59,851 bases of DNA, from contig CAZNSC010000002.1 of assembly GCA_964575695.1 (NCBI GenBank), positions 1 through 59,851 of the forward strand, written 5' to 3'. Below are positions 17,643 through 55,687 of the stretch, one piece after another; positions within the stretch are counted from its first letter, which is position 1, and each line of letters begins with the position of its first letter. A model generated the notes under the pieces. That model saw only the letters and a program-made list of their open reading frames with translations. It was not told the DNA's origin and made no database searches. The translations under genes were made by a program, and so were the position numbers. The stretch comes from an uncultured Dehalococcoidales bacterium. GTDB taxonomy: Bacteria > Chloroflexota > Dehalococcoidia > Dehalococcoidales > W111.

Positions 17643-18548
17643 TCAAGAGCACAGTGCCTCGACAAAAGCTTCGGCGTTAAACGGGGCAACATCCTCCAGC
17701 TTCTCGCCAGTACCGACAAACTGGACGGGTATTCTAAGCTCATCGCAGATAGCCAGCACAATGCCGCCCTTGGCGGTGCCATCCAGCTTTGCCAGGAAGA
17801 TGCCGGTTACCCCCACCGCCTCGGTAAAATATCTGGCTTGGGCCAAGCCATTCTGACCGGTGGTGGCATCAATCACCAGGATTACCTCATGCGGTGCTGT
17901 GGGGTCACCCTTGGCGGCCACTCGCTTGATCTTCTTCAGTTCTTCCATGAGGTTAAACTTGGTGTGCAGCCGGCCGGCGGTATCAATAATTACCTCATCG
18001 GCACCCCGGCTCTGTGCTGCCTGCATGGCGTCATAGACCACCGCCCCGGGGTCCGCCCCGGGCTGGTGGGCGATGACCTCCGCCCCAACTCTCTCCGCCC
18101 AGCGCTGGAGCTGGTCAATGGCCGCTGCCCGGAAGGTATCTGCCGCCGCCAGCAGCACCCGCCTCCCGCCCCTTTTCGACCTGTAAGCAAGCTTGGCAAT
18201 AGAGGTTGTCTTACCACTGCCGTTGACGCCGACGGCAAGAATGACTTTGGGCACCGGTGCCGCAGGCGGCGCTCCTTGATTATCAATCTTCAAGATATTG
18301 ACCATTTCCGTCTGTAATGCCGAGCGCACCAGTGAGCTATCGCTAATCCTCTCCTCCTTTACTTGCTGTTTTACCCGTTCAATCAGCTTTTCGGCAGTGG
18401 TAACACCGACATCGGCGGCGACCAGCAGCTCCTCAAGGTCTGTCCATACCGCCTCATCGATAACAGTGCGGTCAAACAGGCGCATTGCCTTGCTGAACCA
18501 GGTATCACGGCTTCGCTTCAGTGCCTGTTTAATATTTACCAACCTCAC
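17643..18548 (-). CDS. ftsY: Signal-recognition-particle receptor FtsY
   Basis: 301 aa. It has the NG domain with [14 protein letters not shown] and [10 protein letters not shown]. The GTG start lies inside a repeat module. Confidence 0.93.
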
Positions 18549-18770
18549 CCCCTGTATCCCCCTCTCCTTATCTAAGGAGAGGGGGACGGTTTTGGAAGAA
18601 GGGTAAAACCCTTCTTAAACTACCTGCATTTAGTTTTGCCTTGCTCTTTAACTATCCCCTAATATGTTTTAATAAGGGCAGCCCCTCTCACACTCCCTGT
18701 TAGATTAACCTCTTTCAAAGGAGAGGGGGAATTATAAGAGGGGCGTAAGCCCCTCTTGGATTCTCCCCTT
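18543..18770. repeat. Hairpin-repeat cluster 5: module A at the left end, then B-type hairpins and a partial A
   Basis: CCTCACCCCCTGTATCCCCCTCTCCTTATCTAAGGAGAGGGGG; GGAAGAAGGGTAAAACCCTTCTT; TAAGAGGGGCGTAAGCCCCTCTT. Confidence 0.85.
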
Positions 18771-18871
18771 TTTGGACTCTCTCTTTATATTATAAGCTAC
18801 TTCGCTGGAAAATGGAAAAAAGGGGGGTTATTTGCGTTTGGTTGGTGGGAAGAAGAGGGGTGAGGTACTAG

Positions 18872-19198
18872 ATGCTCACTGTTATTAAGTATATAATACA
18901 GCATATGTTGGATTTCTATCGACGTATATGGCAGGCATTCTTAGTAGCTAGTCCTGCATGGGTAGGGATTGCTTATTTATTCAAAGATTATAATATAGCC
19001 TTCATAATTCTTCTTATTATAGCCTTTATCTGCTTCGTAGTAGCTCTTATAGGCTTATATTATGACTATCTAGATGCCCGTAGGAAAAAGAAAGAAGAAA
19101 AAAGGGAAGCGGATAAAATTGCACTCGCTGAATCGGTGAGGCGAATGCACCCCGGATATACTGAAGAACAAGTCAAATGGTTTATCGAGGGAAAGTAA
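18872..19198 (+). CDS. AT-rich orphan membrane protein (2 TM plus a Lys/Glu-rich tail)
   Basis: 108 aa. The ATG is preceded at 6 nt by GGGGTGAGG, a repeat-family end motif. A hand count on one 60-nt line gave 25% G+C. I recognise no family. Confidence 0.55.
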   Translation: MLTVIKYIIQHMLDFYRRIWQAFLVASPAWVGIAYLFKDYNIAFIILLIIAFICFVVALIGLYYDYLDARRKKKEEKREADKIALAESVRRMHPGYTEEQVKWFIEGK

Positions 19199-19317
19199 TA
19201 GAGAATTATTAAGTCACCGTCAAGTCATAAAACCACAACTGTCAACATCCCGACCAAATGCAAATAACACTGTACGTATAAAACCTTGCTTTTCTGATTC
19301 TTGCCAGCAAGGTAAAA

Positions 19318-19403
19318 CAGGGGGAGTTTGAGGGGGCGCCAGCCCCCTCTCTTAACTTATGTCCCCCTTCCCTTGTAAGGGAAGGGGGTCAGGGGGATAG
19401 GTT
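19318..19403. repeat. Hairpin-repeat cluster 6: B-type GAGGGGGC-GCCA-GCCCCCTC plus A-type CCCCCTTCCCTTGTAAGGGAAGGGGG-TCAGGGGGATAGG in + orientation
   Basis: Read directly. Confidence 0.8.
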
Positions 19404-19443
19404 GCTGGGAATCTGTTCCAGGCTACTCTTGATAAATGACTTT

Positions 19444-21729
19444 TTAAGCAAATAACAACTCCTCAAGTAATATCTGGGCCGCCTTTTTGTCTAGGGGCTG
19501 GTTATTATTGCCGCATTTGGGCGACTGGATACAACTGGGGCAGCCCTCAAGGCACGGGCACTCGGTGATGGCCGCCAGTGTTGCCTGCCATAGTTCCTCG
19601 GTGAGGTCAAAGCCTTTCTCGGCAATGCCGATGCCGCCGGGATAGGCATCATATATGAATATCTGGGCTTTGCCGGTATCCGGGTGGAGGGGGGTGGAGA
19701 CACCACCAATGTCATTGCGGTCACACAGGGCAAACAGGGGGAGGATGGCAATAGCGGCGTGCTCTGCCGCATGCAGACCGCCGGCAAAGTCCAGTTGTGC
19801 CTCATCCACGTAAGTGATAGCCTGCGGCGGCAGGTCAAACCAGAGGCCGATAGTGGGAAAGCGCTGCGGTGGCAGGTCGAGGGGCTCCTCCCCGATTACC
19901 TCCTCGGTGAACTGTGCCTTCTTCTTAAAGCCAACCACGGTAGTGGTAACCTCGACCTCACCAAGGTATACCTTTACCTGCCGGCAGCTCCGGCTGTTGA
20001 TTAGCCTCAAGATACGTAAATCAGTAATCTCCTTGGTCTGGGTATAATAAGCCGCCGTGGTCGGTGTGGCATAGGCAGTGTGGTTCGCCAGGTCAAGGTC
20101 AGTGACTAAATAGGGCTCCCCCTGATGGAGGTAGATAGCCCCGGGGTGCACCTGAAAGATGGCGACACTGGCCTCTACTGTCTCCAGCAGGGAGCCGGTT
20201 GCCGCATCAATAACGGCGAAGCTTTCCCCGGAGGTAGCACGAATATTGATGCTTTGCGCCGGATAGGAGATGGTGGGTGAAAGATACCACCTGCCTAGGC
20301 GCTCCCTGAGTATTCCCAGCTCTTCCAGCTCTGCTGTTTCCCGGCTTAAGGCCGGGCCAAAAAACCTGTCGTCATTACCTCGTAGTGGCAGCTCCCAGGC
20401 GGCACACAGAAGCTGGGCTCTCAAAATATAAGGGTTATCGGGATTGACCAGAGCATTCTCAAAGTTTTTTCCGAAAAAGTTGTCCGGGTGACGCATGAAG
20501 TACTGGTCTAGAGGATTGTCCAGCCCGATGAGGAAGCTTAAGGACTCATCTCTACCCCGACCACTCCTCCCCGCCTGCTGCCAGGTGCTGGCAATGCTCC
20601 CCGGGTAGCCAGTGAGCACGGTTGCCTCCAGGTCGCCAATATCTATCCCGAGCTCTAAGGCCGTGGTCGCCACCACCCCGAGCAGTTGACCCGAAAACAG
20701 CTCCTGCTCTATCTGCCGCCGTTCCTGGGGGAGATAGCCCGCTCGATAAGGTTTTATCCTTCCGGCCATGACGGGATCATTTTCAGTGAGACTCTGCCGC
20801 GAGTAGGTATAGATAAGCTCGGTTAATCGGCGGGTGCGGGCAAAGGTCAGGCTGCGGATATTGTGGCTGACTAACTCGGTGAACAGGTGCGTGGCTTCAC
20901 TATTAGCGCTGCGCCGAACGCTTTTGGCGACATCGATAATCGGCGGGTTCCAGAAAACAAACTCCTTGCCCCCGTGGGGGGAGCCATCGCTGTCAACTAC
21001 CTGAAACGGAAGCCCTGCCAGCTTTTGTGCGTGCTCACCGGGATTGGCTATTGTTGCCGAGCAGCAGATGAACTGGGGATTTGAGCCGTAGTGCTGGCAC
21101 AGGCGGCGCAGGCGACGCAGCACGCCGGCGACATGGGAGCCAAAAACACCTCGATAGACATGAGCTTCATCCACGACTACATATCTCAGGTTGCGGAGCA
21201 GCCTTGTCCAGGACGGATGATTAGGCAGTATCCCGATATGGAGCATATCGGGATTGGTGAGGACTATCCTGGCTCGACGCCTTATGTCAGCCCGCTCTGC
21301 CTGAGGAGTATCGCCATCAAAGGTGGCCAGCTCCTCAACCCTGAATAGTGCGGGGCAGAATAGCTCCTTTAAACCACGCAGCTGGTCTTGAGCCAGCGCC
21401 TTGGTGGGGAAGAGGTACAGGGCGCGGGTGCCCTTCTCAGTTAACATTGCCTCCAGTACAGCGGTGTTATAACACAATGTCTTGCCGCTGGCGCTTGAAG
21501 TTGCCACCATCACATTCCCGCCCCGCCGGGCGATATTCACGGCTTCAGCCTGGTGAGTATATAGTGGTAACAGGCCGTGAGCCTTCAGGCGATATTGAAG
21601 AGCGGCAGTCAGGGCTTTGTCCAAATCTCCGTATTTGGCCTGACGGGGGGGAATATGCTCGATGTGGGCAATCTGGCGGCTATAATTGGGCTGAGCCATA
21701 AGATACTGGAGAAACGCTGAGGGGTTCAT
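19444..21729 (-). CDS. DEAD/DEAH-box helicase with a C-terminal DUF1998/MrfA-type Zn-binding domain (YprA/MrfA-like)
   Basis: Helicase motifs are ATSSASGKT, VVDEAH and QQAGRSGR. The C-terminal Cys cluster is CPCLEGCPSCIQSPKCGNNN. I place the start at the ATG at 21729 (MNPSAF...), which avoids the overlap with the DUF503 gene; the ORF track gives 21768. Confidence 0.85.
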   Translation of the reverse strand: MNPSAFLQYLMAQPNYSRQIAHIEHIPPRQAKYGDLDKALTAALQYRLKAHGLLPLYTHQAEAVNIARRGGNVMVATSSASGKTLCYNTAVLEAMLTEKGTRALYLFPTKALAQDQLRGLKELFCPALFRVEELATFDGDTPQAERADIRRRARIVLTNPDMLHIGILPNHPSWTRLLRNLRYVVVDEAHVYRGVFGSHVAGVLRRLRRLCQHYGSNPQFICCSATIANPGEHAQKLAGLPFQVVDSDGSPHGGKEFVFWNPPIIDVAKSVRRSANSEATHLFTELVSHNIRSLTFARTRRLTELIYTYSRQSLTENDPVMAGRIKPYRAGYLPQERRQIEQELFSGQLLGVVATTALELGIDIGDLEATVLTGYPGSIASTWQQAGRSGRGRDESLSFLIGLDNPLDQYFMRHPDNFFGKNFENALVNPDNPYILRAQLLCAAWELPLRGNDDRFFGPALSRETAELEELGILRERLGRWYLSPTISYPAQSINIRATSGESFAVIDAATGSLLETVEASVAIFQVHPGAIYLHQGEPYLVTDLDLANHTAYATPTTAAYYTQTKEITDLRILRLINSRSCRQVKVYLGEVEVTTTVVGFKKKAQFTEEVIGEEPLDLPPQRFPTIGLWFDLPPQAITYVDEAQLDFAGGLHAAEHAAIAILPLFALCDRNDIGGVSTPLHPDTGKAQIFIYDAYPGGIGIAEKGFDLTEELWQATLAAITECPCLEGCPSCIQSPKCGNNNQPLDKKAAQILLEELLFA

Positions 21730-27548: not shown

Positions 27549-27561
27549 AGATTTTCCTTCA

Positions 27562-27893
27562 ACCTCTCACCCCTTTAATCCCCCTCTCCTTCTAAGGAGA
27601 GGGGGAAGAATTTTCTTAAGAGGGACGAAGTCCCTCTTTAACATCCTATAGCTAAAGCTTGTTTTGCCTGCTCTCCCTCTAACGATATATAAGAGGAGCG
27701 TCAGCCCCTCTTTTTTTTCTTTCTCCCTCCTTTGAAGGCGGTTCGAGTTTAAGAGGGGCTTGACGTCCCTCTTTCTTTTTCCTCCCCCTCCTTTGAAGAA
27801 GTGGATAGCGAAGGAGAGTCAAAGAGAGGCGAAGCCTCTCTTACATAAGCAATTCCCCCTCCCTTGGAAAGGGAGGGGGATAAAGGGGGTGGG
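27562..27893. repeat. Hairpin-repeat cluster 7: about 330-bp array of roughly 5 A+B units with inverted A-type termini
   Basis: The left end is ACCTCTCACCCCTTTAATCCCCCTCTCCTTCTAAGGAGAGGGGG. The right end is CCCCCTCCCTTGGAAAGGGAGGGGGATAAAGGGGGTGGGTT, approximately its reverse complement. There are four internal B hairpins. Confidence 0.85.
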
Positions 27894-27908
27894 TTTAATA
27901 AATAATCT

Positions 27909-29534
27909 CTACTTATCGCCGTTGACGGGCATGATTCTCAATGTCATCTCTCCGCTTTGGCGGGAAATCTCTATCGTCTTCAGCCATTGCTCGTTATCTT
28001 CTTCGGGGTAATCAGCTCGATGGTGAGCGCCCCGGCTTTCGGTTCTCATCAGGGCAGCCCGGCAGACCATCTCCGAAACAGTCAACATGTTGACAAGCTT
28101 GATGGCTTGAGGTAGTTGCCGGTAGTCGGTCAGCGATAGAGCTCCCAGTTGCTCTCGTAGGGCAGCGATCTCTCTCCGGGCAGCCTCAAGGTTCCTTCCG
28201 TCCCTGATTATCCCAGCCCTGTCCCACATGGTTTGCCTGAGCGACTGCTTCAGCTCTTGAAGGCTCTGCCGCCCGCTGCCCGAAGCCAGTTCACTTAGCC
28301 TTTTCACCCCGGCGGCTACCTTGCTCTGGGGGACTGGTGTTCGACCTGTTTTGGACGCTCTGGCGGCCGCCCTATCTCCGGCAGTAGCGCCAAAAACAAG
28401 GGTATCGGTGATCGCATTTCCTGCCAGCCTGTTGGCGCCGTGGGTACCACCGCAGACCTCACCGGCGGCGTATAGCCCATTGACCGCAGTCTCAGCGTTC
28501 TCGTTGATTCTTATCCCACCCATGAAAAAGTGAGCGGCGGGAGCAACCGGGAATCTCGGCGGGAAACCCCGGAGGTAATACTTTTCGGCTACCTCCTCGG
28601 GCATGGGAGTAAGGTCAAAAACAACACTACCTTCGATTCCTCGGCCGGCGATAATCTCTTCCATTATCAGCCGGGCTAATATGTCCCGGGTCGCTGAAGC
28701 CAAATCATCTATCCCGTGTCTCTTCAGGATGTCTTCCTCTGACGAGTTCCTGAGGGTGGCACCATTTGGCATAAGCCTCTCGTAGGCACATAGCTTGCTG
28801 CCATGTTGTCCCAGCGTAGTGGGGTAAAACTGCACAAACTCCATGTCACGCAGAGTTGCCCCCGCCTCATAGGCTAAGGCAAAGCCGTCTCCGGTCAATC
28901 CGAGTGCGTTGTTTGTTCTGAGGTAAAGCTGCCCGGCACCGCCGGTGGCCAGGATGGTGGACTTAGCACTAATGACCAGCACCTGACCCTCGTCATCTAT
29001 TCCCAGTGCCCCCGTTACCGCATCCTCGGCGCGCAGCAGCTTGGTTACCAGAATTCCCTCCATGAATCGGATACCCAGGCTGGCGGCATACTGCCGCATT
29101 GGTCGGGTGATGTTAATCCCTTTGAATCTATCCACGGAAACATGCCGGGGATATGTATGTCCGGGGACCTGCCACACTGATGGCTTTCCCTGATGCTGCC
29201 GGAAGTGTACTCCAAACCTGGTTAGGTCGTGGACCTGCTGTTTTGCCCCGTGTGTCATAGTTTCCACCAGCCGCCGGTCATTGATGAAACGTCCGCCAGT
29301 GATTGTATCCCTTAGATGCACTTCAGGGGAATCGGCGGGCTGGTTGGCGACGCCGGCGGCGGCAAAGGTGGCTCCAGAAATAGCCGTGTTATTTCTGAAA
29401 CCCACGGGCGCTTCCGATATTAGCAATACATCGAGGTCGTATTTGCTGGCTTCAATGGATGCCCTTAACCCGGCGCCACCACCACCAATCACCAGGACGT
29501 CGGTATCTATTATTTGAGTGGCTTTCAGTTTCAC
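27909..29534 (-). CDS. nadB: FAD-dependent oxidoreductase of the L-aspartate oxidase / succinate dehydrogenase flavoprotein family (probably L-aspartate oxidase)
   Basis: 541 aa. It contains DVLVIGGGGAGLRA, MEFVQFYPT and ESRGAHHRADYP. No adjacent Fe-S or membrane subunit genes are present, which favours NadB. Confidence 0.7.
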   Translation of the reverse strand: MKLKATQIIDTDVLVIGGGGAGLRASIEASKYDLDVLLISEAPVGFRNNTAISGATFAAAGVANQPADSPEVHLRDTITGGRFINDRRLVETMTHGAKQQVHDLTRFGVHFRQHQGKPSVWQVPGHTYPRHVSVDRFKGINITRPMRQYAASLGIRFMEGILVTKLLRAEDAVTGALGIDDEGQVLVISAKSTILATGGAGQLYLRTNNALGLTGDGFALAYEAGATLRDMEFVQFYPTTLGQHGSKLCAYERLMPNGATLRNSSEEDILKRHGIDDLASATRDILARLIMEEIIAGRGIEGSVVFDLTPMPEEVAEKYYLRGFPPRFPVAPAAHFFMGGIRINENAETAVNGLYAAGEVCGGTHGANRLAGNAITDTLVFGATAGDRAAARASKTGRTPVPQSKVAAGVKRLSELASGSGRQSLQELKQSLRQTMWDRAGIIRDGRNLEAARREIAALREQLGALSLTDYRQLPQAIKLVNMLTVSEMVCRAALMRTESRGAHHRADYPEEDNEQWLKTIEISRQSGEMTLRIMPVNGDK

Positions 29535-43038: not shown

Positions 43039-43731
43039 TTGGTGAAGCCTTCGTTTACCATCCACGATTTGCCGGTTCCTGAGCGACCGCGCGAGAGACT
43101 GCAAAAGCTGGGGGTGGAAGCCCTATCGGCACAGGAGATTCTGGCGCTGATACTGGGTCGTGGTATTGCTGGTGAGTCGGTGATGGTGACCGCCCAGAGG
43201 CTCCTGAGCCAGTTTGGCAATCTTAAAGGCATCGCTGCGGCTTCGGTAGAGCAACTGTCCCAGGTCAGAGGGATCGGTCTGGCCAAGGCGGCTCAGATTA
43301 AGGCGGCTTTCGAGCTAGCCAACCGGCTTGAGGGTTATTCTCAGGCTGGTGATAGGTCGCCGGTAAAGACCCCCGACGATGTTGCTGGCCTGGTGGGAAG
43401 CCGTCTGAGGGGTAAAAAGAAAGAGTATTTCCTGGCGCTCTTGCTGGATACCAGGAACCAGCTGATAAAAGTGGCCGAGATTTCGGTTGGCAGCCTGGAC
43501 AGCAGTATTGTTCACCCCAGAGAGGTGTTCAGGGAGGCGATATCTGCCAGCGCTGCCTCGGTGATTTTCGTCCACAATCACCCCTCGGGTGACCCTGAAG
43601 CCTCGGAAGATGACATAAAATTGACTAAACAGTTAGCCGAGGCGGGCGAAGTCGTGGGCATAGATGTCCTGGACCACATCATTATCGGCGACAAGAAATA
43701 TTTGAGCCTGAAAGGCAGAGGTCTATTTTGA
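43039..43731 (+). CDS. radC: RadC-family JAB/MPN-domain protein
   Basis: 230 aa. It has an N-terminal HhH region (PRERLQKLGVEALSAQELLA-like) and the JAMM motif HNHPSGDPEASEDD. Confidence 0.88.
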   Translation: MVKPSFTIHDLPVPERPRERLQKLGVEALSAQEILALILGRGIAGESVMVTAQRLLSQFGNLKGIAAASVEQLSQVRGIGLAKAAQIKAAFELANRLEGYSQAGDRSPVKTPDDVAGLVGSRLRGKKKEYFLALLLDTRNQLIKVAEISVGSLDSSIVHPREVFREAISASAASVIFVHNHPSGDPEASEDDIKLTKQLAEAGEVVGIDVLDHIIIGDKKYLSLKGRGLF

Positions 43732-43740
43732 GACTGTTTA

Positions 43741-43826
43741 TCAACCCCATCCCCTGTATCCCCTTCCCCTTTGAAGGGGAAGGGGAAGATAGAGAAAGAG
43801 GGGCGACAGCCCCTCTTAGACGCCTC
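43741..43826. repeat. Hairpin-repeat cluster 8 (left-end A module plus B module); contains the left copy of the direct repeat flanking the R-M islet
   Basis: CAACCCCATCCCCTGTATCCCCTTCCCCTTTGAAGGGGAAGGGGAAGATAGAGAAAGAGGGGCGACAGCCCCTCTTAG. Confidence 0.85.
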
Positions 43827-43924
43827 AGGTACGGGTTTGGGGGGAAGCAAAGCAGAAAACCTTTGGATTCAACAAATGAATATCAAAGAGATGAACCGCA
43901 GGTCTCGTAGAAGGACGGCATAAT

Positions 43925-44578
43925 ATGAAAGCATTTTCACACAAGAAATATCAGATCATTTATGCTGACCCACCGTGGCAGTTTACTGGTCTTGGAAGCA
44001 AGGGCATTCGTTCTGGGAAAATGAGAGAAGATAAGCCGAACCTTCATAGGACAATTCGCCTTGAAGAAAAGTATCCGACTATGACAGTTGACGAGTTAAA
44101 AGCCCTACCAGTCAAGGACTTAGCCGATGAGAATAGCGTTCTTTTTTTGTGGACAACGGATGGGCACTTGCCATTCGCAATAGAAATAATGAGAAGTTGG
44201 GGGTTTGAGTATGCCACTGTTGCCTTTGTGTGGAATAAAAAAGAAAAAAGCGGTAAGCAAGTTTGCTATTATGGTTATTGGACAATGAAGGGAACGGAAC
44301 TCTGTTTGTTAGGTCGCCGGGGTAAGGTAAAACCAGTTGCACACAATGTGAGACAACTGGTGGAAGCAACAAGAAATAAACATAGCCAAAAACCAGATGA
44401 GGTGAGAGATAGAATAGTTGAGCTAATGGGGGACTTGCCTCGTATAGAACTATTTGCCCGTAAAAGGACACTTGGATGGGATGTTTGGGGTAATGAGGTG
44501 GAAGACCTACAAGAAGCTGGTAGCGATGGGAAACCTGTGATAATTCGCAGGCAGCCGCAATTAATACTTGTTGAATGA
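43925..44578 (+). CDS. MT-A70-family N6-adenine DNA methyltransferase (DPPW motif)
   Basis: 217 aa. It contains YQIIYADPPWQF, LFLWTT, WDVWGNE and a HSQKPDE motif, all characteristic of MT-A70/Ime4-like bacterial methyltransferases. Confidence 0.85.
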   Translation: MKAFSHKKYQIIYADPPWQFTGLGSKGIRSGKMREDKPNLHRTIRLEEKYPTMTVDELKALPVKDLADENSVLFLWTTDGHLPFAIEIMRSWGFEYATVAFVWNKKEKSGKQVCYYGYWTMKGTELCLLGRRGKVKPVAHNVRQLVEATRNKHSQKPDEVRDRIVELMGDLPRIELFARKRTLGWDVWGNEVEDLQEAGSDGKPVIIRRQPQLILVE

Positions 44579-44591
44579 AGGAGAGAACAGT

Positions 44592-45305
44592 GTGGCTAAG
44601 AAACATCAACTCCGTGAAATCCGTACCGGAACCATCATCAATGTAACGTCGCAGAAACAAGAGACCGAGATAATCCAAGCTCTGATACGGGTAGTAGAGT
44701 ACTTGGGTAGCAAGTTCAATAAGAAGGTCGCACTTTTTCATGAGAAACGATGGCATCTCAAGGATATAGTCGCAGAACTTCGACATACATACCCCGATAT
44801 TGAGTTCGACTATCATTTCGACACAAGCTCGATTAGACCGGACGGGGGCATCCTCTATATTCGCGGACAGCCAGGAGACAAGCTATCGTACCCCATCTTG
44901 ATTGCTGAAGTGAAGAATCAGGGTACTAATGTTTTACGTGCTGAAGAAGGTCTTCCAAAGCAAGCAAAAGGTAATGCCATCGAGCGACTTGGCAAGAATC
45001 TGATTGGTCTACGGACTGCCCTAATGCGAGAGAGTGTCTTCCCATTCGTGTGTTTTGGGTATGGTTGTGATTTTGAGTCAGATTCGTCAATTTTAGATAG
45101 GGTCACCACGATGGCAATGTTCGGGAAGCTTAACAAGACATACTTACACAATGAGCAAGGCGGGAGATTTAGTAGGGGGAGTTTCTATTTTAGGCCAGAA
45201 AAGTGGTCTGTGGATGAGATGTACGAAATTATGAAGGATATTGCTGAGCGGTCTATCTTATATTACTTCTCAAAATACAAGGAGAGCCATTTCCGACAGG
45301 TGTGA
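44592..45305 (+). CDS. EcoRI-family type II restriction endonuclease
   Basis: The translation aligns by eye to EcoRI. SSIRPDGGILYI matches SSIKPDGGIVEV. LIAEVKNQG matches LVAEAKHQG (the PD...E-x-K catalytic core). AKGNAIERLGKN matches AAGNAIERSHKN. ESVFPFVCF matches ESHFPYVLF. ILDR matches ILNR. The likely start is GTG 44592 after GGAGAG; the ORF track's TTG 44568 overlaps the M gene by 11 nt. Confidence 0.85.
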   Translation: MAKKHQLREIRTGTIINVTSQKQETEIIQALIRVVEYLGSKFNKKVALFHEKRWHLKDIVAELRHTYPDIEFDYHFDTSSIRPDGGILYIRGQPGDKLSYPILIAEVKNQGTNVLRAEEGLPKQAKGNAIERLGKNLIGLRTALMRESVFPFVCFGYGCDFESDSSILDRVTTMAMFGKLNKTYLHNEQGGRFSRGSFYFRPEKWSVDEMYEIMKDIAERSILYYFSKYKESHFRQV

Positions 45306-45366
45306 TAGAGACCATGACTATTTAGGCAACCTACTGACTTTTTGTGCAAGTGGCACTTTTAAGGCA

Positions 45367-45531
45367 GAGCCCTTTGAAGGGGAAGGGAAGATAGAGAAAG
45401 AGGGGCTATCGCCCCTCTAAACTCCCTGACTGCCATTCAAGAGTAAGGAGAGTTGAAGAGAGGCGGAGCCTCTCTTACCAAATCTTTCCCCCTCTCCTTG
45501 CCAAGGAGAGGGGGATTGAGGGGGTGAGGTT
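45367..45531. repeat. Hairpin-repeat cluster 9 (right copy of the islet-flanking repeat, a B module, and a right-end A module ...AAGGAGAGGGGGATTGAGGGGGTGAGG)
   Basis: Read directly. Confidence 0.85.
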
Positions 45532-45637
45532 AATAAGTAAGTCTCAAGGGAGAAGAACTGTCTAGCCTTCCCTTGATAAACGGCCTTTGTTTTGGGCCAG
45601 GATGGTATTGGAATAATCACATAAATAGAGCTAAAAG

Positions 45638-47251: not shown

Positions 47252-47339
47252 CGGAGGGGGTGGGATTCGAACCCACGCTCCGCTCAACACGGAGACCGCT
47301 TTTCAAGAGCGGCACCATAAACCACTCGGACACCCCTCC
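47252..47339 (-). tRNA. tRNA-Ser (anticodon TGA), long variable arm, no encoded CCA
   Basis: Minus strand: GGAGGGG...CCGCT-CTTGAAA-AGCGG...variable arm TCTCCGTGTTGAGCGGAGC...GTGGG-TTCGAAT-CCCAC-CCCCTCC-G. Confidence 0.9.
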
Positions 47340-47448
47340 TGGCTAGTCCAGTATAGAAAATCGGGCTGGTGGCGTCAAACGGCTCAGCGCGCAAGGCAAG
47401 ATGACAACTTAGTCCGTTTCCAAATTAGCTTTGAAATTTTGTTAATAA

Positions 47449-47530
47449 GGGGGTTGAAGGGGCTTCGCCCCTTCAACAACTACATCTCCCACTCTCCTTT
47501 GAAGGAGAGGGGGACTAAGGGGGTGAGGTT
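47449..47530. repeat. Hairpin-repeat cluster 10 (a B module plus an A module in + orientation); it supplies the last codons and the stop of the Mo-enzyme gene
   Basis: GTTGAAGGGGCTTCGCCCCTTCAAC ... CTCTCCTTTGAAGGAGAGGGGGACTAAGGGGGTGAGG. The CDS on the minus strand ends ...KTSPP-TAG inside it. Confidence 0.85.
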
Positions 47531-49578
47531 TTAGCCCTTTTTATCCGGCAGGGCAGGGCTTTGAGCTGCGTGTACCCCGTAATCGGGTCACGGAGCTCCA
47601 GCTCGGTCAGCGCATTGACATTAGCCTGAGACCAGCCGTGGGGGGTGCTGACTACCCCAGGTGCCAGGTCTTCAGTTGTCCTGACTCTCATTCTTATTTC
47701 GCCCTTCCTTGTTGCTATCGCCGCCATGTCGCCATCAGCAATGCCGTATTCTTGGGCGGTGGCGGGGTGAATTTCGGCTAGCGGTTCCGGGACTGCCTCC
47801 CGCAGTGCCAGCACATTTCTGAACTGGGTGTGGGTATATCCCAGAATCCGGGTGCCGGTAATCAGGATCAAAGGATACTCCGTATGCAGGCTACCGACCT
47901 TTCCGAAGCTCGGCTCGATATACACCGGCAGCGGGTCGTATCCATGGTCGGCTAATGTCTGTGAGTAAAGCTCGATTTTCCTTGACGGGGTCCGGAACTC
48001 ACCCTTGCGGCACAGGTCATATTTCTTCCCGGTAAAGAAGGTGCCCTCGGGGTTTTGCTCTCTTAGCTGCTCAGCAGTTAGCCCGGTAGGCTTTAGCCAG
48101 TGTCCCACGACCTCATCATCGGTCTGCCACGGGAAGAGGTCTTCATATCCCATCCGTCTCCCCAGCCCGCACCAGAACTTCCAGTCAGGCCAGCATTCCC
48201 ACAGTGGCTCGATTACCTTCTTACGGAGCAGGAGGTAGGGTAGGCCGCTTGTTACCGCATAAATATAGCCGACCCCACTGCGCTCCATAAACGAGCAGGC
48301 GGGGAGCACGATGTCCGCCATCTGTGCGGTCTCGGTCATAAACAGGTCAATAACCACCAGAAGCTCCAGCTTCTCCATTGCCTGCTTCATGCGGTTGGCA
48401 TCAGGGAGGGTGACTGCCGGGTTACCGCCGGTGACAATCAGGGCTTTGATAGGGTATGGCTTCTCCTCAAGTATGGCGTCCGCCAGATACATTGCCTGAC
48501 CATAGGGGGATTGTCTGCCCCAGAGCTGGTAGAACAACGGGTGCTCGGCAACGCCGATAGGGTCTTCATCTACCTTGATGTGGAGGCTACCCAGGCGGGG
48601 GAAGGAGACGGCAGACCATCCCCCGGGCACATCAACATTCCCGGTAACTGCTTGTAGGATGGCAATGGCGCGGTTGGTCTGCAAGCCGTTCACCTGCTGG
48701 TCGAGGGCACAGACACCCTGGACGATGGACGCCGGCTTGGCGGCGGCAAATATCCGGGCAATCCTTCTTATATCGTCGGCAGGCACCCGGGTTATACTCT
48801 CCACCTTCTCTGGAGAGTATTGCTTGACATGCTCGGCGAGCTTATCGAAGCCAGTAGTGTACCTGGCCATGAATTGTTTATCGTAGAGGTCTTCAGAGAT
48901 GATAACATTGAGCATACTCAGAGCCAGGGCACAATCGGTGCCCGGTCTTATCGGGATATGTATCCCCCTTTTTGCCAGTGGTGTCCGCCTGGGGTTGATG
49001 ACGATTAGCTCCAGCCCCTCGTCCAGGGCTTTATAGAGCTTGCTGGCCAGTGGCAGCTTTGAGTTATCCGGGTCGTGCCCCCAGAGTATGGCGCACTTCG
49101 CCCTTTCCGGCTCCTCCAGAAGGAAGGTGCCGAAGGTTAGCTGGTGGGCAAGGATGCGGGAGCGGTAGCAGTTGCTCTCCACGGACAGGAAGTTGGGCGT
49201 GCCGTAGGCGCCGCGAAAGCGGCGGGCGAACGCCGCCAGTTCGTTATTTTCGACACCGATTGAGCCGCAGAAGATGGCCAGGGCATGGGCGCCGTATTCG
49301 TCCTTGATTTGCTGTAGCTTACCGGCTATGGTATCCAGGGCTTCGTCCCATGAGATTCTCTCCCAGCCGCTGTTTATCTTCTTTATCGGGTATTTCAGGC
49401 GGTCTGGTGAATAGATGTAGTCCACTAGGTGCTCACCCCTGGGGCATAGGACCCCCTGATTTAAGGGGTGCTCGGCCATCCCCTCCACCCTGACCAGCCG
49501 CCCGTCCTCAACGTGGGCATTGATGCCGCAGCCCCAGACACACAATATGCAATCGGTCTTAATGACTTTCTTATCCAT
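47515..49578 (-). CDS. Molybdopterin (bis-MGD) oxidoreductase, DMSO-reductase superfamily, apparently cytoplasmic and stand-alone
   Basis: It has an N-terminal 4Fe-4S motif (C-x2-C-x3-C: DCILCVWGCG...C) and a long MopB body. A Cys candidate Mo ligand lies in GTPNFLSVESNCYRS. There is no twin-arginine signal. I place the start at the ATG at 49578; the ORF track gives 49596. Confidence 0.85.
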   Translation of the reverse strand: MDKKVIKTDCILCVWGCGINAHVEDGRLVRVEGMAEHPLNQGVLCPRGEHLVDYIYSPDRLKYPIKKINSGWERISWDEALDTIAGKLQQIKDEYGAHALAIFCGSIGVENNELAAFARRFRGAYGTPNFLSVESNCYRSRILAHQLTFGTFLLEEPERAKCAILWGHDPDNSKLPLASKLYKALDEGLELIVINPRRTPLAKRGIHIPIRPGTDCALALSMLNVIISEDLYDKQFMARYTTGFDKLAEHVKQYSPEKVESITRVPADDIRRIARIFAAAKPASIVQGVCALDQQVNGLQTNRAIAILQAVTGNVDVPGGWSAVSFPRLGSLHIKVDEDPIGVAEHPLFYQLWGRQSPYGQAMYLADAILEEKPYPIKALIVTGGNPAVTLPDANRMKQAMEKLELLVVIDLFMTETAQMADIVLPACSFMERSGVGYIYAVTSGLPYLLLRKKVIEPLWECWPDWKFWCGLGRRMGYEDLFPWQTDDEVVGHWLKPTGLTAEQLREQNPEGTFFTGKKYDLCRKGEFRTPSRKIELYSQTLADHGYDPLPVYIEPSFGKVGSLHTEYPLILITGTRILGYTHTQFRNVLALREAVPEPLAEIHPATAQEYGIADGDMAAIATRKGEIRMRVRTTEDLAPGVVSTPHGWSQANVNALTELELRDPITGYTQLKALPCRIKRAKTSPP

Positions 49579-49630: not shown

Positions 49631-49950
49631 CTACCTCACCCCCTGTGGTTCCTCCCCTCGGTTCCCCTCCTTTTGAAATCCATCCCCCTGGCCCCCTTCC
49701 TTTCAAGAAGAAGGGGAGAGGTTTTGGGAAGAGGGGCTGGCGCCCCTCTTAAACACCCCGCTTTGGGGGGAGTATAAATCTCTCTCGGTCTCCCTTTAAT
49801 AAAGGGAGACGGCCCATCTTGCAGGTCTCTGTCTCCCCCTTTGAAAAAGGGGGACTAAGGGGGATTTTAAGGGAGAAAAAGAAAGAAGGGCGAAGCCCCT
49901 CTTAATATAAATTTTACCCTTACCTTCACCAATCCCCAAGGGAAGGAGGT
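49631..49950. repeat. Hairpin-repeat cluster 11 (about 320 bp, multiple A/B modules and degenerate copies)
   Basis: CTACCTCACCCCCTGTGG...; GGAAGAGGGGCTGGCGCCCCTCTTAA; TCTCCCCCTTTGAAAAAGGGGGACTAAGGGGGAT; AGAAGGGCGAAGCCCCTCTTAA. Confidence 0.8.
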
Positions 49951-51294: not shown

Positions 51295-51302
51295 AATTTT
51301 TC

Positions 51303-51415
51303 TACCTCACCCCCTGTGTCCCCCTCTCCTTCAAAGGAGAGGGAGAAGGGTTCTATAAGAGGGACTTCGTCCCTCTAAAACTTCCTAAAATATCTGGGGC
51401 TTCGCCTCTCTTTGA
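51303..51415. repeat. Hairpin-repeat cluster 12 (an A module plus two B modules), immediately upstream of serS
   Basis: CTACCTCACCCCCTGTGTCCCCCTCTCCTTCAAAGGAGAGGGAG; TAAGAGGGACTTCGTCCCTCTAA. Confidence 0.85.
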
Positions 51416-51445
51416 CTCTCCTCCACAAGTCGGGGTATCAATTCC

Positions 51446-54951: not shown

Positions 54952-54963
54952 GGTCGTTTAGTG

Positions 54964-54995
54964 ACCTCACCCCCTGTGCCCCCCCTCTTACTTTC
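54964..54995. repeat. Partial A-module repeat (CCTCACCCCCTGTGCCCCCCCTCTTAC) upstream of the methyltransferase gene
   Basis: Read directly. Confidence 0.7.
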
Positions 54996-55004
54996 CTCAA
55001 AAAC

Positions 55005-55613
55005 CTAAAATTCCTGCCTGCCCTCAAGGGCCCGGGTGAGGGTAATGTCATCGGCGTATTCCAGCTCGGTGCCAAAGGGCAGCCCCCGGGCAAGGCGGGT
55101 GCCCAGAGGTGAAATCAGGTGGTTGAGGTACATTGCGGTCTGTTCACCCTCAAGATTGGGGTTGGTGGCGAGGATGACCTCAGTTACCGAGCTACCCTGT
55201 AACCGGCTCATGAGCTCGTTGATTCTGACGTCGTTAGCCCCCACCCCCTCGGTAGGCGAGATGGCGCCGTGGAGCACATGGTACAGTCCCTTATAGGTCT
55301 TGGTGTTCTCCAGAGCCAGGATGTCCTGTGGCTGCTCAACGACACAAATCTTGCCCGGCTCCCGCTCACTGCTGCGACAGATAGGGCACGGGTCAGAGTC
55401 AGTGATATTGAGGCAGACCGAGCACAGTGTGACCTTCTGTTTTAACGACGATATTGCCTCAGCTAATAGCCTGGCTTGCTCCTCGGAGGCACGCAGCAGG
55501 TAGTAGGCGAGTCGCTGGGCGCTCTTGGGCCCGATGCCGGGCAGCTTGTTGAGCTCCTGGATGAGCTTGGATACCGCTTCCGAGGTAGGTATCAGACCGT
55601 GGTTCAACCTCAC
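55005..55613 (-). CDS. recR: Recombination protein RecR
   Basis: 202 aa. It contains [17 protein letters not shown] (HhH), a Cys4 Zn-finger ([16 protein letters not shown]) and a Toprim domain. The predicted GTG start lies inside a repeat module. Confidence 0.93.
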
Positions 55614-55673
55614 CCCCTTTATCCCCCCTTGAAGGAGGGGGATATTTTATTAAGAGGGGCGAAGCCCCTCTTA
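55608..55673. repeat. Hairpin-repeat cluster 14 (an A module plus a B module), overlapping the recR start
   Basis: CCTCACCCCCTTTATCCCCCCTTGAAGGAGGGGGAT...TAAGAGGGGCGAAGCCCCTCTTAG. Confidence 0.85.
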
Positions 55674-55687
55674 GACGCTCTACTAGA

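What the first reader, a model, noticed from the sequence alone, without database searches (positions are those of the whole stretch)
43768..45418. Low-GC restriction-modification islet pairing an EcoRI-family nuclease with an MT-A70 (DPPW) methyltransferase, inserted inside a host repeat element and flanked by ~49-nt direct repeats
Seen in the sequence. Two abutting genes (43925-44578 and 44592-45305) lie in a block that is clearly AT-richer than its flanks: hand counts gave 33-42% G+C inside versus about 62% in radC. The second protein carries the EcoRI catalytic and recognition segments (PDGGI, AEVKNQG, GNAIER, ILDR). The first is a compact MT-A70-type enzyme (YADPPW). The block is bracketed by CCTTTGAAGGGGAAGG(G)GAAGATAGAGAAAGAGGGGC...GCCCCTCT at 43768-43816 and 45371-45418. 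This is 36/37 identity including a linker (GAAGATAGAGAA) that I see in no other copy of the repeat family. The left flank carries only a left-end A module and the right flank only a right-end A module, as if one composite element was split by the insertion. Established knowledge: the known partners of EcoRI-type nucleases are gamma-class (M.EcoRI, NPPF) or beta-class (M.RsrI, DPPY) enzymes, so an MT-A70 partner is unusual. MT-A70 is the clade that gave rise to eukaryotic METTL3/Ime4. Inference: this is a recently acquired type II R-M cassette with no recombinase. It was probably captured by recombination or duplication at the repeat. Conservation of GNAIER and the R200-equivalent residue suggests GAATTC or another AATT-core site.
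Basis: partly seen in the sequence, partly recalled or inferred. Interest (0 to 1): 0.72.

Follow-up and report, generated by a model that had tools for sequence, protein, structure and literature searches.

The report
EcoRI-type restriction–modification islet in repeat
This is an intact, horizontally acquired two-gene restriction–modification cassette (an EcoRI-family nuclease plus a short MT-A70 methyltransferase) sitting inside a host repeat element of a Dehalococcoidales genome; it is an ordinary kind of defence islet, and its most interesting feature is sequence evidence that the methyltransferase was swapped in front of a conserved nuclease module.

Summary
Two abutting genes, M (43925-44578; Pfam MT-A70, E=5e-26) and R (44592-45305; Pfam EcoRI, E=3.5e-13; profile against EcoRI structures, E=2e-30), form the lowest-G+C segment of the window. 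The contrast is 43-44.5% against 54-55%, not 33-42% against 62%. The two 48/49-nt repeats are real.

The cassette is an insertion. None of 80 related Dehalococcoidales loci with the conserved peptidase-radC-SBP synteny carries it. Three relatives have an uninterrupted copy of the same composite repeat directly after radC.

Three parts of the interpretation are overstated:
- The "unique" linker occurs in repeat copies of other genomes. The two window copies (45/49) are no more alike than copies from different organisms (46/49), so target duplication is not demonstrated.
- The MT-A70 partner is not exotic. PADLOC already has a Type II methyltransferase model that matches it (E=4.5e-64), and the pairing recurs on other contigs. 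This nuclease clade otherwise pairs with D12-class enzymes.
- The recognition site is untested. The nuclease residues favour GAATTC or an AATT core, but characterised methyltransferase relatives are GATC-specific.

New here: MT-A70 enzymes linked to this nuclease carry a C-terminal tail of about 30 residues that is homologous to the tail of a D12 partner. This is a scar of methyltransferase exchange. Close relatives of M are phage orphan enzymes.

The parts
43737..43766 (+). Left inverted-repeat end of the host composite (MITE-like) repeat. It starts 6 nt after the radC stop (43729-43731).
   Evidence: Family D4/D2. Inverted repeat with the right end. The same element occupies the same position in L021, L023 and L107.
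43759..43784 (+). Hairpin A (CCCCTTCCCCTTTGAAGGGGAAGGGG), complete copy.
   Evidence: I4, 13-nt arms, 100% complementary; D3 family, 10 copies in the window.
43768..43816 (+). Left copy of the 49-nt module: right arm of hairpin A, linker GAAGATAGAGAA, and hairpin B with loop GACA.
43817..43866 (+). Element-like spacer after hairpin B (TAGACGCCTCAGGTACGGGTTTGG...GAAAAC). This is host repeat sequence, not cassette.
   Evidence: Homologous to the continuation of the element in L103, L108 and L107 (blastn to 43838-43859; alignments).
43867..43924 (+). 58-nt leader upstream of M, of unknown origin. No match was found elsewhere.
   Evidence: outside both the repeat homology and the cassette homology.
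43925..44578 (+). M gene: MT-A70-family (DPPW) adenine methyltransferase, 217 aa.
   Evidence: Pfam PF05063 at 5.4e-26, profile positions 1-172/172. PADLOC MTase_II at 4.5e-64. METTL3 and ciliate MT-A70 structures at about 1e-14.
44498..44578 (+). C-terminal tail of M (26 aa after WGNE) plus stop. It is the translated leader of the R module, shared with the tail of a D12-class partner, and is interpreted as a methyltransferase-exchange scar. A TGA here replaces the CGA of longer-tailed relatives.
   Evidence: the P0124 tail scores 72 against L019 D12 residues 390-418, versus 25.6 +/- 4.1 in shuffles (0/3000). The window tail scores 34 (28/3000); the tail lies outside the D12 core model.
44592..45305 (+). 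R gene: EcoRI-family PD-(D/E)XK Type II restriction endonuclease, 237 aa, GTG start, SD GGAG at 44580-44583.
   Evidence: All family-invariant residues are present.
45306..45370 (+). 65-nt trailer downstream of R, of unknown origin.
   Evidence: No homology outside the window.
45371..45418 (+). Right copy of the module: truncated hairpin A (right arm only), the same linker, and hairpin B with loop TATC.
   Evidence: It is module-1 type but sits at the position of module 2 in uninterrupted elements.
45419..45547 (+). Right half of the composite repeat: spacer, hairpin C (45448-45483), hairpin A' and the right inverted-repeat end (45487-45545).
   Evidence: I2; D5, D6, D8. Aligns with L021, L103, L107 and L108.

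Best explanation
This is an intact Type IIP restriction-modification cassette.

Gene functions (assigned by homology):
- R is an EcoRI-family PD-(D/E)XK nuclease. It is predicted to cut an unmethylated palindrome, most likely GAATTC or another AATT-core site.
- M is a short MT-A70-family N6-adenine methyltransferase, transcribed just upstream. It is predicted to protect the same site.

Location and origin:
- The pair was acquired horizontally. It now lies inside a pre-existing MITE-like composite repeat that sits directly downstream of radC in this Dehalococcoidales lineage.
- The unit shared between genomes is essentially the two ORFs. Nucleotide homology between cassettes on different contigs stops at their edges.

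Methyltransferase exchange:
- The cassette is a product of methyltransferase exchange. This nuclease clade is usually preceded by a D12-class enzyme.
- Here and in a few sister cassettes, a phage-type MT-A70 gene sits in front of the same R module. It reads through a conserved R-proximal leader of about 90 nt, which also forms the C-terminal tail of one D12 partner.

Basis of each step:
- Shown: family assignments, intactness, absence from relatives, the composition anomaly, recurrence of the pairing, tail homology, and phage-orphan relatives of M.
- Inferred: enzymatic activity, cognate specificity, direction of the swap, and the integration mechanism. For integration, I favour recombination involving repeat-family sequence over a simple long target duplication.
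For: Family and intactness:
- The catalytic residues D84/E106/K108 and the AATT-reading segment Q110 and G127-R132 are conserved.

Insertion:
- 0 of 80 related loci hold M or R, although about 55 keep the peptidase-radC-SBP order.
- Many relatives have radC and SBP only 80-140 bp apart.
- L023, L107 and L021 have an uninterrupted composite repeat right after radC.
- The cassette is the lowest-G+C segment of the window: GC3 is 0.39-0.49 against 0.62-0.65 in neighbouring genes.

Mobility:
- Cassettes 88% identical at the nucleotide level sit in unrelated contexts, with homology confined to 43934-45300.
- A decayed copy (intact M plus the last ~37 codons of R) lies at another locus in another repeat-bearing genome, L213.

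Partner exchange:
- D12 partners were found for P0043, P0081, P0111, P0006 and L110-112.
- MT-A70 partners were found for the window, P0002 and P0009.
- Nuclease identities do not separate cleanly by partner: 84-85% across partner types.
- Tail homology is highly significant.
- M relatives at 69-80% identity are orphans in phage contexts.
- 0 of 81 M-relative loci (80 viral-contig loci plus L212) has an EcoRI-family gene.
- 517 phage records carry relatives of M.
Against: - No activity or methylome data exist for this cassette.
- MT-A70 relatives include a 16S rRNA methyltransferase that needs a partner subunit (PMC10810198). DNA specificity of M therefore rests on its linkage to R.
- The window's own tail match is weaker (28/3000 shuffles reach it) and L010's is not significant. 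L016-type cassettes lack the tail altogether.
- The direction of the swap is not established, because the tail lies outside both methyltransferase cores.
- The partner census is small and biased towards long contigs.
- The structure model is of low confidence (pLDDT 58), and the R200 equivalence rests on a MAFFT alignment that HMMER does not reproduce.
- No avoidance of any AATT-core hexamer was seen.
Confidence: 0.72

Rival explanations
1. Insertion with long target duplication, in the sense of Nobusato and Furuta. The cassette entered the composite repeat and the ~49-nt module was duplicated in the process, giving the two direct repeats.
For: - The bracket meets the formal criteria of PMC2853133: R and M inside, insert under 20 kb, repeat over 30 bp.
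- The two window modules are 92% alike, whereas the two modules of uninterrupted elements are only 61-73% alike. The right module is module-1 type.
- L107 has a single copy between radC and SBP.
- The closest relative, L021, shows a clear long target duplication at this same locus: a 171-nt copy of the unique radC 3' end at 91.8% identity.
Against: - The repeat is a multi-copy family member, not unique target sequence.
- The window's left and right copies match at 45/49, which is no better than the left copy against L103 from another contig (46/49). The differences cluster in the hairpin loop, as they do between any two copies.
- The left copy does not abut the insert. At least 50 nt of element-like spacer follows it.
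- Uninterrupted elements already have a second module at the position of the right copy.
Confidence: 0.3
2. Repeat-mediated recombination. The cassette arrived on DNA from a related, repeat-bearing genome. It integrated by homologous or homology-facilitated recombination, or by a Campbell-type single crossover, within repeat-family sequence. The bracketing modules are therefore partly donor-derived.
For: - Element-like spacer lies between the left module and the cassette.
- In L213 a homologous cassette at a different locus is also directly followed by modules of the same repeat family, and that genome carries the family elsewhere.
- The module is conserved almost exactly between organisms, so it can serve as a portable homology patch.
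Against: - Only two cassette-repeat associations are known, and the repeats are common: about 10 per 60 kb in this window.
- The 58-nt and 65-nt stretches next to the ORFs match nothing.
- No donor configuration has been observed.
Confidence: 0.4
3. The R-M pair is passenger cargo of the MITE-like element. The whole unit bounded by inverted repeats (43737-45547) would transpose when the parent transposase is supplied in trans.
For: - The unit is bounded by inverted ends of about 30 nt.
- L107 carries a different small ORF, with a tail resembling a transposase C-terminus, in the same internal position.
- PMC2853133 describes R-M genes flanked by inverted repeats.
Against: - The element sits at the same position without the cassette in L021, L023 and L107, so it predates the cassette here.
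- Cassette homologues elsewhere lack these ends.
- L213 has only right-half modules.
- No transposase was found, and the L107 ORF has no Pfam hit.
Confidence: 0.07
4. The system recognises a GATC-containing site rather than an AATT-core site, or M is a low-specificity adenine methyltransferase that protects against R whatever its site.
For: - Characterised prokaryotic and phage MT-A70 DNA methyltransferases are GATC-specific (PMC7556043).
- The alternative partner belongs to the Dam (D12) family.
- GATC is strongly depleted in this lineage, with O/E 0.27-0.34.
- GATC is nearly absent from the MT-A70-type cassettes: 1, 0 and 0 sites.
- M is barely larger than the catalytic core, leaving little room for a recognition domain.
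Against: - The nuclease keeps the EcoRI residues that read AATT (N141, A142, R145, Q115 equivalents) and probably R200 (PMC4081073).
- The D12 partner has no close solved Dam relative.
- GATC depletion is lineage-wide and independent of the cassette.
- D12-type cassettes contain 5-8 GATC sites each.
Confidence: 0.25

Closest known systems
EcoRI / RsrI R-M systems (GAATTC)
   Same: - The nucleases are homologous: PF02963, the catalytic D/E/K triad, the GNAIER extended-chain segment, and probably R200.
- The operon has two genes.
- This family is the classic case of homologous nucleases paired with non-homologous methyltransferases (gamma-class M.EcoRI against beta-class M.RsrI).
   Different: - Only about 29% identity to EcoRI.
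- 40 residues shorter, lacking the 177-195 hairpin and part of the 123-134 loop.
- M137, A139 and R203 are replaced by Q, K and T.
- The partner is MT-A70 rather than the M.EcoRI or M.RsrI type.
- Specificity is unknown.
D12-linked sister cassettes of the same nuclease clade (e.g. L002-L009, L019; Paracoccus marcusii plasmid NZ_CP065909.1)
   Same: - The nucleases are 57-85% identical.
- Same gene order (M then R) and tight spacing.
- The L019 type shares the leader/tail upstream of R.
   Different: The methyltransferase is a 388-424-aa D12 (alpha-class, DPPY) enzyme rather than a 195-233-aa MT-A70 enzyme.
Phage orphan MT-A70 methyltransferases (e.g. Serratia phage BZS1 p32, Tn1549 enzyme, Stx-phage M.EcoPA8orf6770P)
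   Same: - Same family and size, with DPPW at the N-terminus.
- 45-80% identity to relatives in phage contexts.
   Different: - Those enzymes are solitary.
- The characterised ones are GATC-specific or act on rRNA with a partner subunit.
- The window's enzyme is fused to a leader of the R module and is linked to a nuclease.
R-M insertions with long target duplication (Nobusato 2000; Furuta 2010, PMC2853133)
   Same: A small R-M unit with no recombinase and lower G+C, bracketed by direct repeats of about 46-49 bp.
   Different: - Here the repeat belongs to a multi-copy family.
- It does not abut the insert on the left.
- It is partly intrinsic to the host element.

Membership tests
EcoRI-family Type II restriction endonuclease (PF02963) | Significant sequence match to the family model and to EcoRI itself | tested here: met
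   Pfam 3.5e-13. PDB EcoRI 5e-12 with the single sequence and 1.9e-30 with the profile. Foldseek returns only EcoRI, at E=2.5e-9 and TM about 0.6, on a low-confidence model.
EcoRI-family Type II restriction endonuclease (PF02963) | PD...(D/E)XK catalytic residues (EcoRI D91, E111, K113) | tested here: met
   D84, E106 and K108 align and are invariant in 14- and 21-sequence alignments.
EcoRI-family Type II restriction endonuclease (PF02963) | Extended-chain / helix N-terminus recognition segment (M137-R145, Q115) and R200 | tested here: inconclusive
   Q110 and G127-N128-A129-I130-E131-R132 are conserved. M137 becomes Q and A139 becomes K. R200 maps to the invariant R170 by MAFFT (SGILNR/SSILDR), but HMMER does not align this stretch, and EcoRI residues 177-217 were taken from memory.
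EcoRI-family Type II restriction endonuclease (PF02963) | Cleavage at G^AATTC or a related site | not testable with these tools
   No biochemical data. The k-mer avoidance tests were uninformative.
MT-A70 family methyltransferase (PF05063) | Full-length match to the family model | tested here: met
   5.4e-26, profile positions 1-172 of 172. METTL3 and ciliate MTA1 structures at about 1e-14.
MT-A70 family methyltransferase (PF05063) | DPPW catalytic motif placed N-terminally (circularly permuted, beta-like motif order) | tested here: met
   YADPPW at residues 12-17 of 217. The motif order is as described in PMC4738411.
MT-A70 family methyltransferase (PF05063) | N6-adenine methylation of DNA at a defined site | not testable with these tools
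   Relatives include GATC-specific DNA enzymes (PMC7556043) and an rRNA enzyme (PMC10810198).
Type II R-M system | Adjacent, co-oriented M and R genes that travel together | tested here: met
   13-nt spacer with an SD sequence. The same pairing occurs on L010-L018. PADLOC gives MTase_II and REase_II.
R-M insertion with long target duplication (PMC2853133) | R and M inside an insert under 20 kb, flanked by direct repeats over 30 bp | tested here: met
   1.55-kb interval between the 49-nt and 48-nt repeats.
R-M insertion with long target duplication (PMC2853133) | The repeat is single-copy target sequence, present once at the empty site and abutting the insert | tested here: not met
   The module is a multi-copy family member that is conserved across organisms. 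Uninterrupted elements already hold two modules. The left copy is followed by at least 50 nt of element sequence. The relative L107 does have one copy, but it shares only about 76% nucleotide identity.

The most novel reading that the evidence does not exclude
A restriction nuclease module, consisting of R plus a leader of about 90 nt, acts as a docking platform onto which unrelated methyltransferase genes are exchanged. In this lineage a phage anti-restriction orphan MT-A70 enzyme was domesticated as the protective partner. It displaced a D12 enzyme and inherited the same leader-encoded C-terminal tail. Because the enzyme is little more than the catalytic core, it may achieve site specificity in an unusual way or be broadly specific.
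Probability: 0.3. Interest if true: 0.5.

Novelty: new member of a known kind. Interest (0 to 1): 0.33.

Why it matters
For genome annotation, this is a routine defence islet in an uncultured Dehalococcoidales genome.

For R-M biology it gives a concrete, sequence-level example of how a nuclease changes its methyltransferase partner. One highly conserved nuclease clade is found with D12 or MT-A70 enzymes, and more distant family members are paired with or fused to small NPPF enzymes. The shared leader/tail marks the exchange junction.

It also links the very large family of phage orphan MT-A70 enzymes to a bona fide R-M partner. That link could help assign DNA specificity to the phage family.

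Finally, it shows that abundant hairpin-rich repeats can mimic the 'long target duplication' signature used to infer R-M mobility.

Tried and rejected
- Circular or excised form: the Logan contig L001 is simply window 43742-45360 with no mismatches. Rejected.
- My first reading that ILDR aligns to EcoRI L201-D202-R203, which would leave R200 unconserved, was replaced by the better SGILNR/SSILDR alignment.
- MunI could not be reached, either by sequence profile or by fold search.
The permitted shallow alignment gave a low-confidence model (pLDDT 58), so no residue-level structural conclusions were drawn.
- Exact-protein look-up of RadC found nothing. The SBP look-up found only a fragment from the same sample, so there is no strict same-species empty site.
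- Site-avoidance statistics in the host window, in relatives and in the cassettes did not identify a recognition site.
- NCBIfam has no model for either protein.
- The D12 partner has no solved close relative.
- The idea that the cassette rode in on the MITE-like element was considered and given low weight, because the element predates the cassette at this locus.
- Three of the eight metagenome hits to the 20-mer (L102, L104, L106) are an unrelated coding sequence, and L105 is also unrelated to the repeat.
Full report
**Observation**

The region contains two abutting, co-oriented ORFs. M runs from 43925 to 44578 (217 aa, YADPPW near the N-terminus). R runs from 44592 to 45305 (237 aa, GTG start, GGAG 8 nt upstream).

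- Pfam assigns M to MT-A70 (PF05063, E=5.4e-26, the whole 172-position model) and R to EcoRI (PF02963, E=3.5e-13).
- R matches EcoRI structures at E=5e-12 as a single sequence and at 1.9e-30 as a 14-sequence profile.
- M matches METTL3 and ciliate MT-A70 structures at about 1e-14.
- PADLOC calls the two proteins Type II methyltransferase (E=4.5e-64, near full length of a 204-position model) and Type II restriction enzyme.

The G+C dip is real but smaller than reported. M is 43.1% and R is 44.5%, against 55.1% in radC and 54.1% for the window. GC3 is 0.39-0.49 against 0.62-0.65 in neighbouring genes. No other 1.38-kb segment of the window is as low.

The two repeats at 43768-43816 and 45371-45418 are real. 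They match at 45/49 with one indel in a G run, and three of the four differences lie in the 4-nt loop of a hairpin.

**Host and locus**

RadC relatives place the window in Dehalococcoidales, with best amino-acid identity of 85%.

- The order peptidase-like gene, radC, SBP is kept in about 55 of 80 related loci.
- In many of these, radC and SBP are only 80-140 bp apart.
- None of the 80 loci has M or R. The cassette is therefore an insertion.

The window carries a modular, hairpin-rich repeat family with inverted ends of about 30 nt (MITE-like), at roughly ten sites. One such composite element begins 6 nt after the radC stop and ends at about 45547, and the cassette lies inside it. Uninterrupted elements sit at exactly this position in L023, L107 and L021. 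The element therefore predates the cassette.

**Do the repeats show a target duplication?**

The 20-mer that spans the 'unique' linker is unique only within the window. It occurs in repeat copies on four other metagenome contigs.

- The left copy matches L103, from another contig, at 46/49. The right copy matches L107 at 45/49.
- Both values are as good as left against right, and in every comparison the differences fall in the hairpin loop.
- The sequence following the left copy (43817 to about 43866) is still element sequence, because it aligns with the continuation of the element in L103, L108 and L107. The left copy therefore does not abut the insert.
- Uninterrupted elements in L021, L103 and L108 already contain a second arm-linker-hairpin module at the position of the right copy.

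Some evidence points the other way.

- Those two modules are only 61-73% alike, whereas the window's are 92% alike.
- The window's right module is module-1 type.
- L021 shows an unambiguous long target duplication at this very locus: a 171-nt copy of the unique radC 3' end, 91.8% identical, flanking a 1.8-kb insertion.

I conclude that the bracket is not by itself evidence of duplication. The mechanism remains open between a duplication or gene conversion and recombination through repeat-family homology. R-M units with no recombinase, bracketed by repeats of about 46 bp and with low G+C, are a described class (PMC2853133).

**Mobility of the cassette**

The nuclease has more than 2600 homologues. 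The best 120 are all about 237 aa long and 75-91% identical, and they are annotated from several phyla.

- Nucleotide homology between the window and the nearest cassettes (88%) is confined to 43934-45300. The flanks are unrelated.
- L213 holds a decayed copy at a different locus in another genome that carries the repeat family. M is intact, R is reduced to its last ~37 codons, and G+C is 0.45 against 0.58 in the flanks. Repeat modules follow it directly.

**Is the MT-A70 partner unusual?**

Among homologues whose context I could read:

- Four nuclease lineages (76-85% identity) and three viral-contig ones (53-75%) are preceded by a D12-class methyltransferase of 385-459 aa.
- A Paracoccus plasmid homologue (57%) lies next to a gene annotated as 'DNA adenine methylase'.
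- Two lineages besides the window (91% and 86%) have an MT-A70 gene.
- More distant family members on viral contigs sit next to NPPF enzymes of about 210 aa, or are fused to one.

Nuclease identity does not split cleanly by partner type. The family therefore exchanges methyltransferases freely, as the EcoRI/RsrI pair already showed (PMC4081073). Prokaryotic R-M members of the MT-A70 radiation are described in PMC4738411. The pairing is a new combination for this family as far as I could see, but it is not a surprising one.

**A scar of the exchange**

MT-A70 proteins normally end near WDVWGNEV, at 190-200 aa.

- The window's M and its closest relatives (P0121 and P0123-P0125, 224-227 aa) carry an extra tail.
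- The P0124 tail (EGVYTHHKSETIPKEPQLMLLERRREQYG) aligns to residues 390-418 of the 424-aa D12 enzyme that precedes the nearest D12-linked nuclease (L019: ETVLNHHPEYVIQKQAQLMLFEGARERYG). The score is 72, against 25.6 +/- 4.1 for shuffles, and none of 3000 shuffles reached it.
- P0121, P0123 and P0125 are likewise significant.
- The window's shorter tail scores 34 (28 of 3000 shuffles reach it), and L010's tail is not significant.
- The DNA alignment is exactly in register with the R start.
- In the window, a TGA replaces the CGA of the longer-tailed relatives, so M no longer overlaps the R start.

The tail lies outside the conserved D12 core. It is best seen as a leader belonging to the R module that is translated as the C-terminus of whichever methyltransferase gene sits in front.

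Relatives of M at 69-80% identity are solitary genes in phage-like neighbourhoods. None of 81 M-relative loci (80 viral-contig loci plus L212) has an EcoRI-family gene, and 517 phage records carry relatives. The simplest reading is that a phage-type orphan enzyme was recruited. The reverse, capture of M by phages, is not excluded.

**Specificity**

The catalytic triad and the residues that read the AATT core in EcoRI (Q115, N141, A142, R145; PMC4081073) are conserved. MAFFT aligns the invariant SSILDR to EcoRI SGILNR, making R170 the equivalent of R200. M137, A139 and R203 are replaced.

The support is only moderate.

- HMMER does not align that stretch.
- Part of the EcoRI sequence I used came from memory.
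- The AlphaFold model is poor exactly in that region.

There is also a rival reading. Characterised prokaryotic and phage MT-A70 DNA enzymes are GATC-specific (PMC7556043), the alternative partner belongs to the Dam family, and one Stx-phage relative is an rRNA methyltransferase (PMC10810198). Counts of palindromes in the host, in relatives and in the cassettes did not identify a site.

**Verdict**

This is a genuine, intact, horizontally acquired Type II R-M islet nested in a host repeat. It is a new member of a known kind. The added value of this follow-up is the evidence for methyltransferase exchange on a conserved nuclease module, and the demonstration that the repeat bracket is largely a property of the host element.

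Noticed in passing
window ~565-790, 18535-18765, 19362-19387, 27559-27910, 47438-47544, 49690-49910, 51299-51416, 54957-54984, 55600-55680: A modular, hairpin-rich intergenic repeat family. It has inverted ends of about 30 nt (ACCTCACCCCCTGTATCCCCC ... GGGGGATTGAGGGGGTGAGGTT) and interchangeable hairpin modules, so it looks MITE- or REP-like. There are roughly ten sites in 60 kb, and it is also present in related Dehalococcoidales genomes. No transposase was identified.
   Followed up: partly
whole window and loci L021-L086: GATC is strongly under-represented across the lineage. O/E is 0.27 in the window and 0.34 in 810 kb of relatives. This is independent of the cassette.
   Followed up: no
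L021:3440-5434: The closest relative has a 1.8-kb insertion at the same radC-SBP site, encoding a 488-aa putative secreted repeat protein. It is flanked by a 171-nt duplicate of the radC 3' end (91.8% identical). This is a textbook long target duplication.
   Followed up: partly
L034:8849-11109: Another low-G+C islet (0.44 against 0.60) at the same radC-SBP site in a relative. It encodes an HTH protein (weak transposase-HTH hits) and a 589-aa HATPase_c_3 protein, and may be a defence or mobile module.
   Followed up: partly
L107: ~235-nt small ORF between hairpin B and hairpin C of the composite repeat, roughly 1020-1255: A ~78-aa ORF (MKREEMRRKINEELKH...WFREYYNGMRTHDLSL...) lies inside the composite repeat of a relative. 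Its tail resembles the C-terminus of DDE transposases, but it has no Pfam hit. The first codons resemble the short ORF upstream of M in the window (MNIKEMNRR...).
   Followed up: no
L126:678-1931 and L127:3776-5029 (viral contigs): A single 417-aa ORF fuses an EcoRI-family nuclease domain (with KQAKGNAIER) to a small NPPF methyltransferase domain. Related viral contigs (L113, L115, L118, L119, L128) have the two as adjacent genes.
   Followed up: partly
L213:4003-4756: A decayed copy of the cassette at another locus (between tldD/pmbA and a PAC2-family gene). M is intact with its tail, and R has an internal deletion down to its last ~37 codons. It appears to be an R-M unit turning into an orphan methyltransferase.
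   Followed up: partly
L010-L018 downstream of R: Sister MT-A70/EcoRI cassettes carry a 73-86-aa HARE-HTH protein gene just downstream of R, and in L010-L015 a 61-aa ORF upstream of M. Both are absent from the window. They may be a controller or an accessory DNA-binding protein.
   Followed up: no
cassettes: window 43925-45305, L010:660-2088, L016:2781-4085: GATC is almost absent from the three MT-A70-type cassettes (1, 0 and 0 sites in about 4.1 kb), whereas D12-type cassettes have 5-8 each.
   Followed up: no
window 18201-19600: This is the second-lowest G+C block of the window (0.462). It contains repeat modules and a 108-aa predicted membrane ORF (18872-19198), between an ftsY-like gene and a large helicase-like gene.
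   Followed up: no
window 47252-47339 (- strand): A tRNA gene lies immediately after the SBP stop, followed by another repeat copy (47438-47544). The Logan contigs of the same sample break at 45360/45372, at the edge of the right repeat copy.
   Followed up: no
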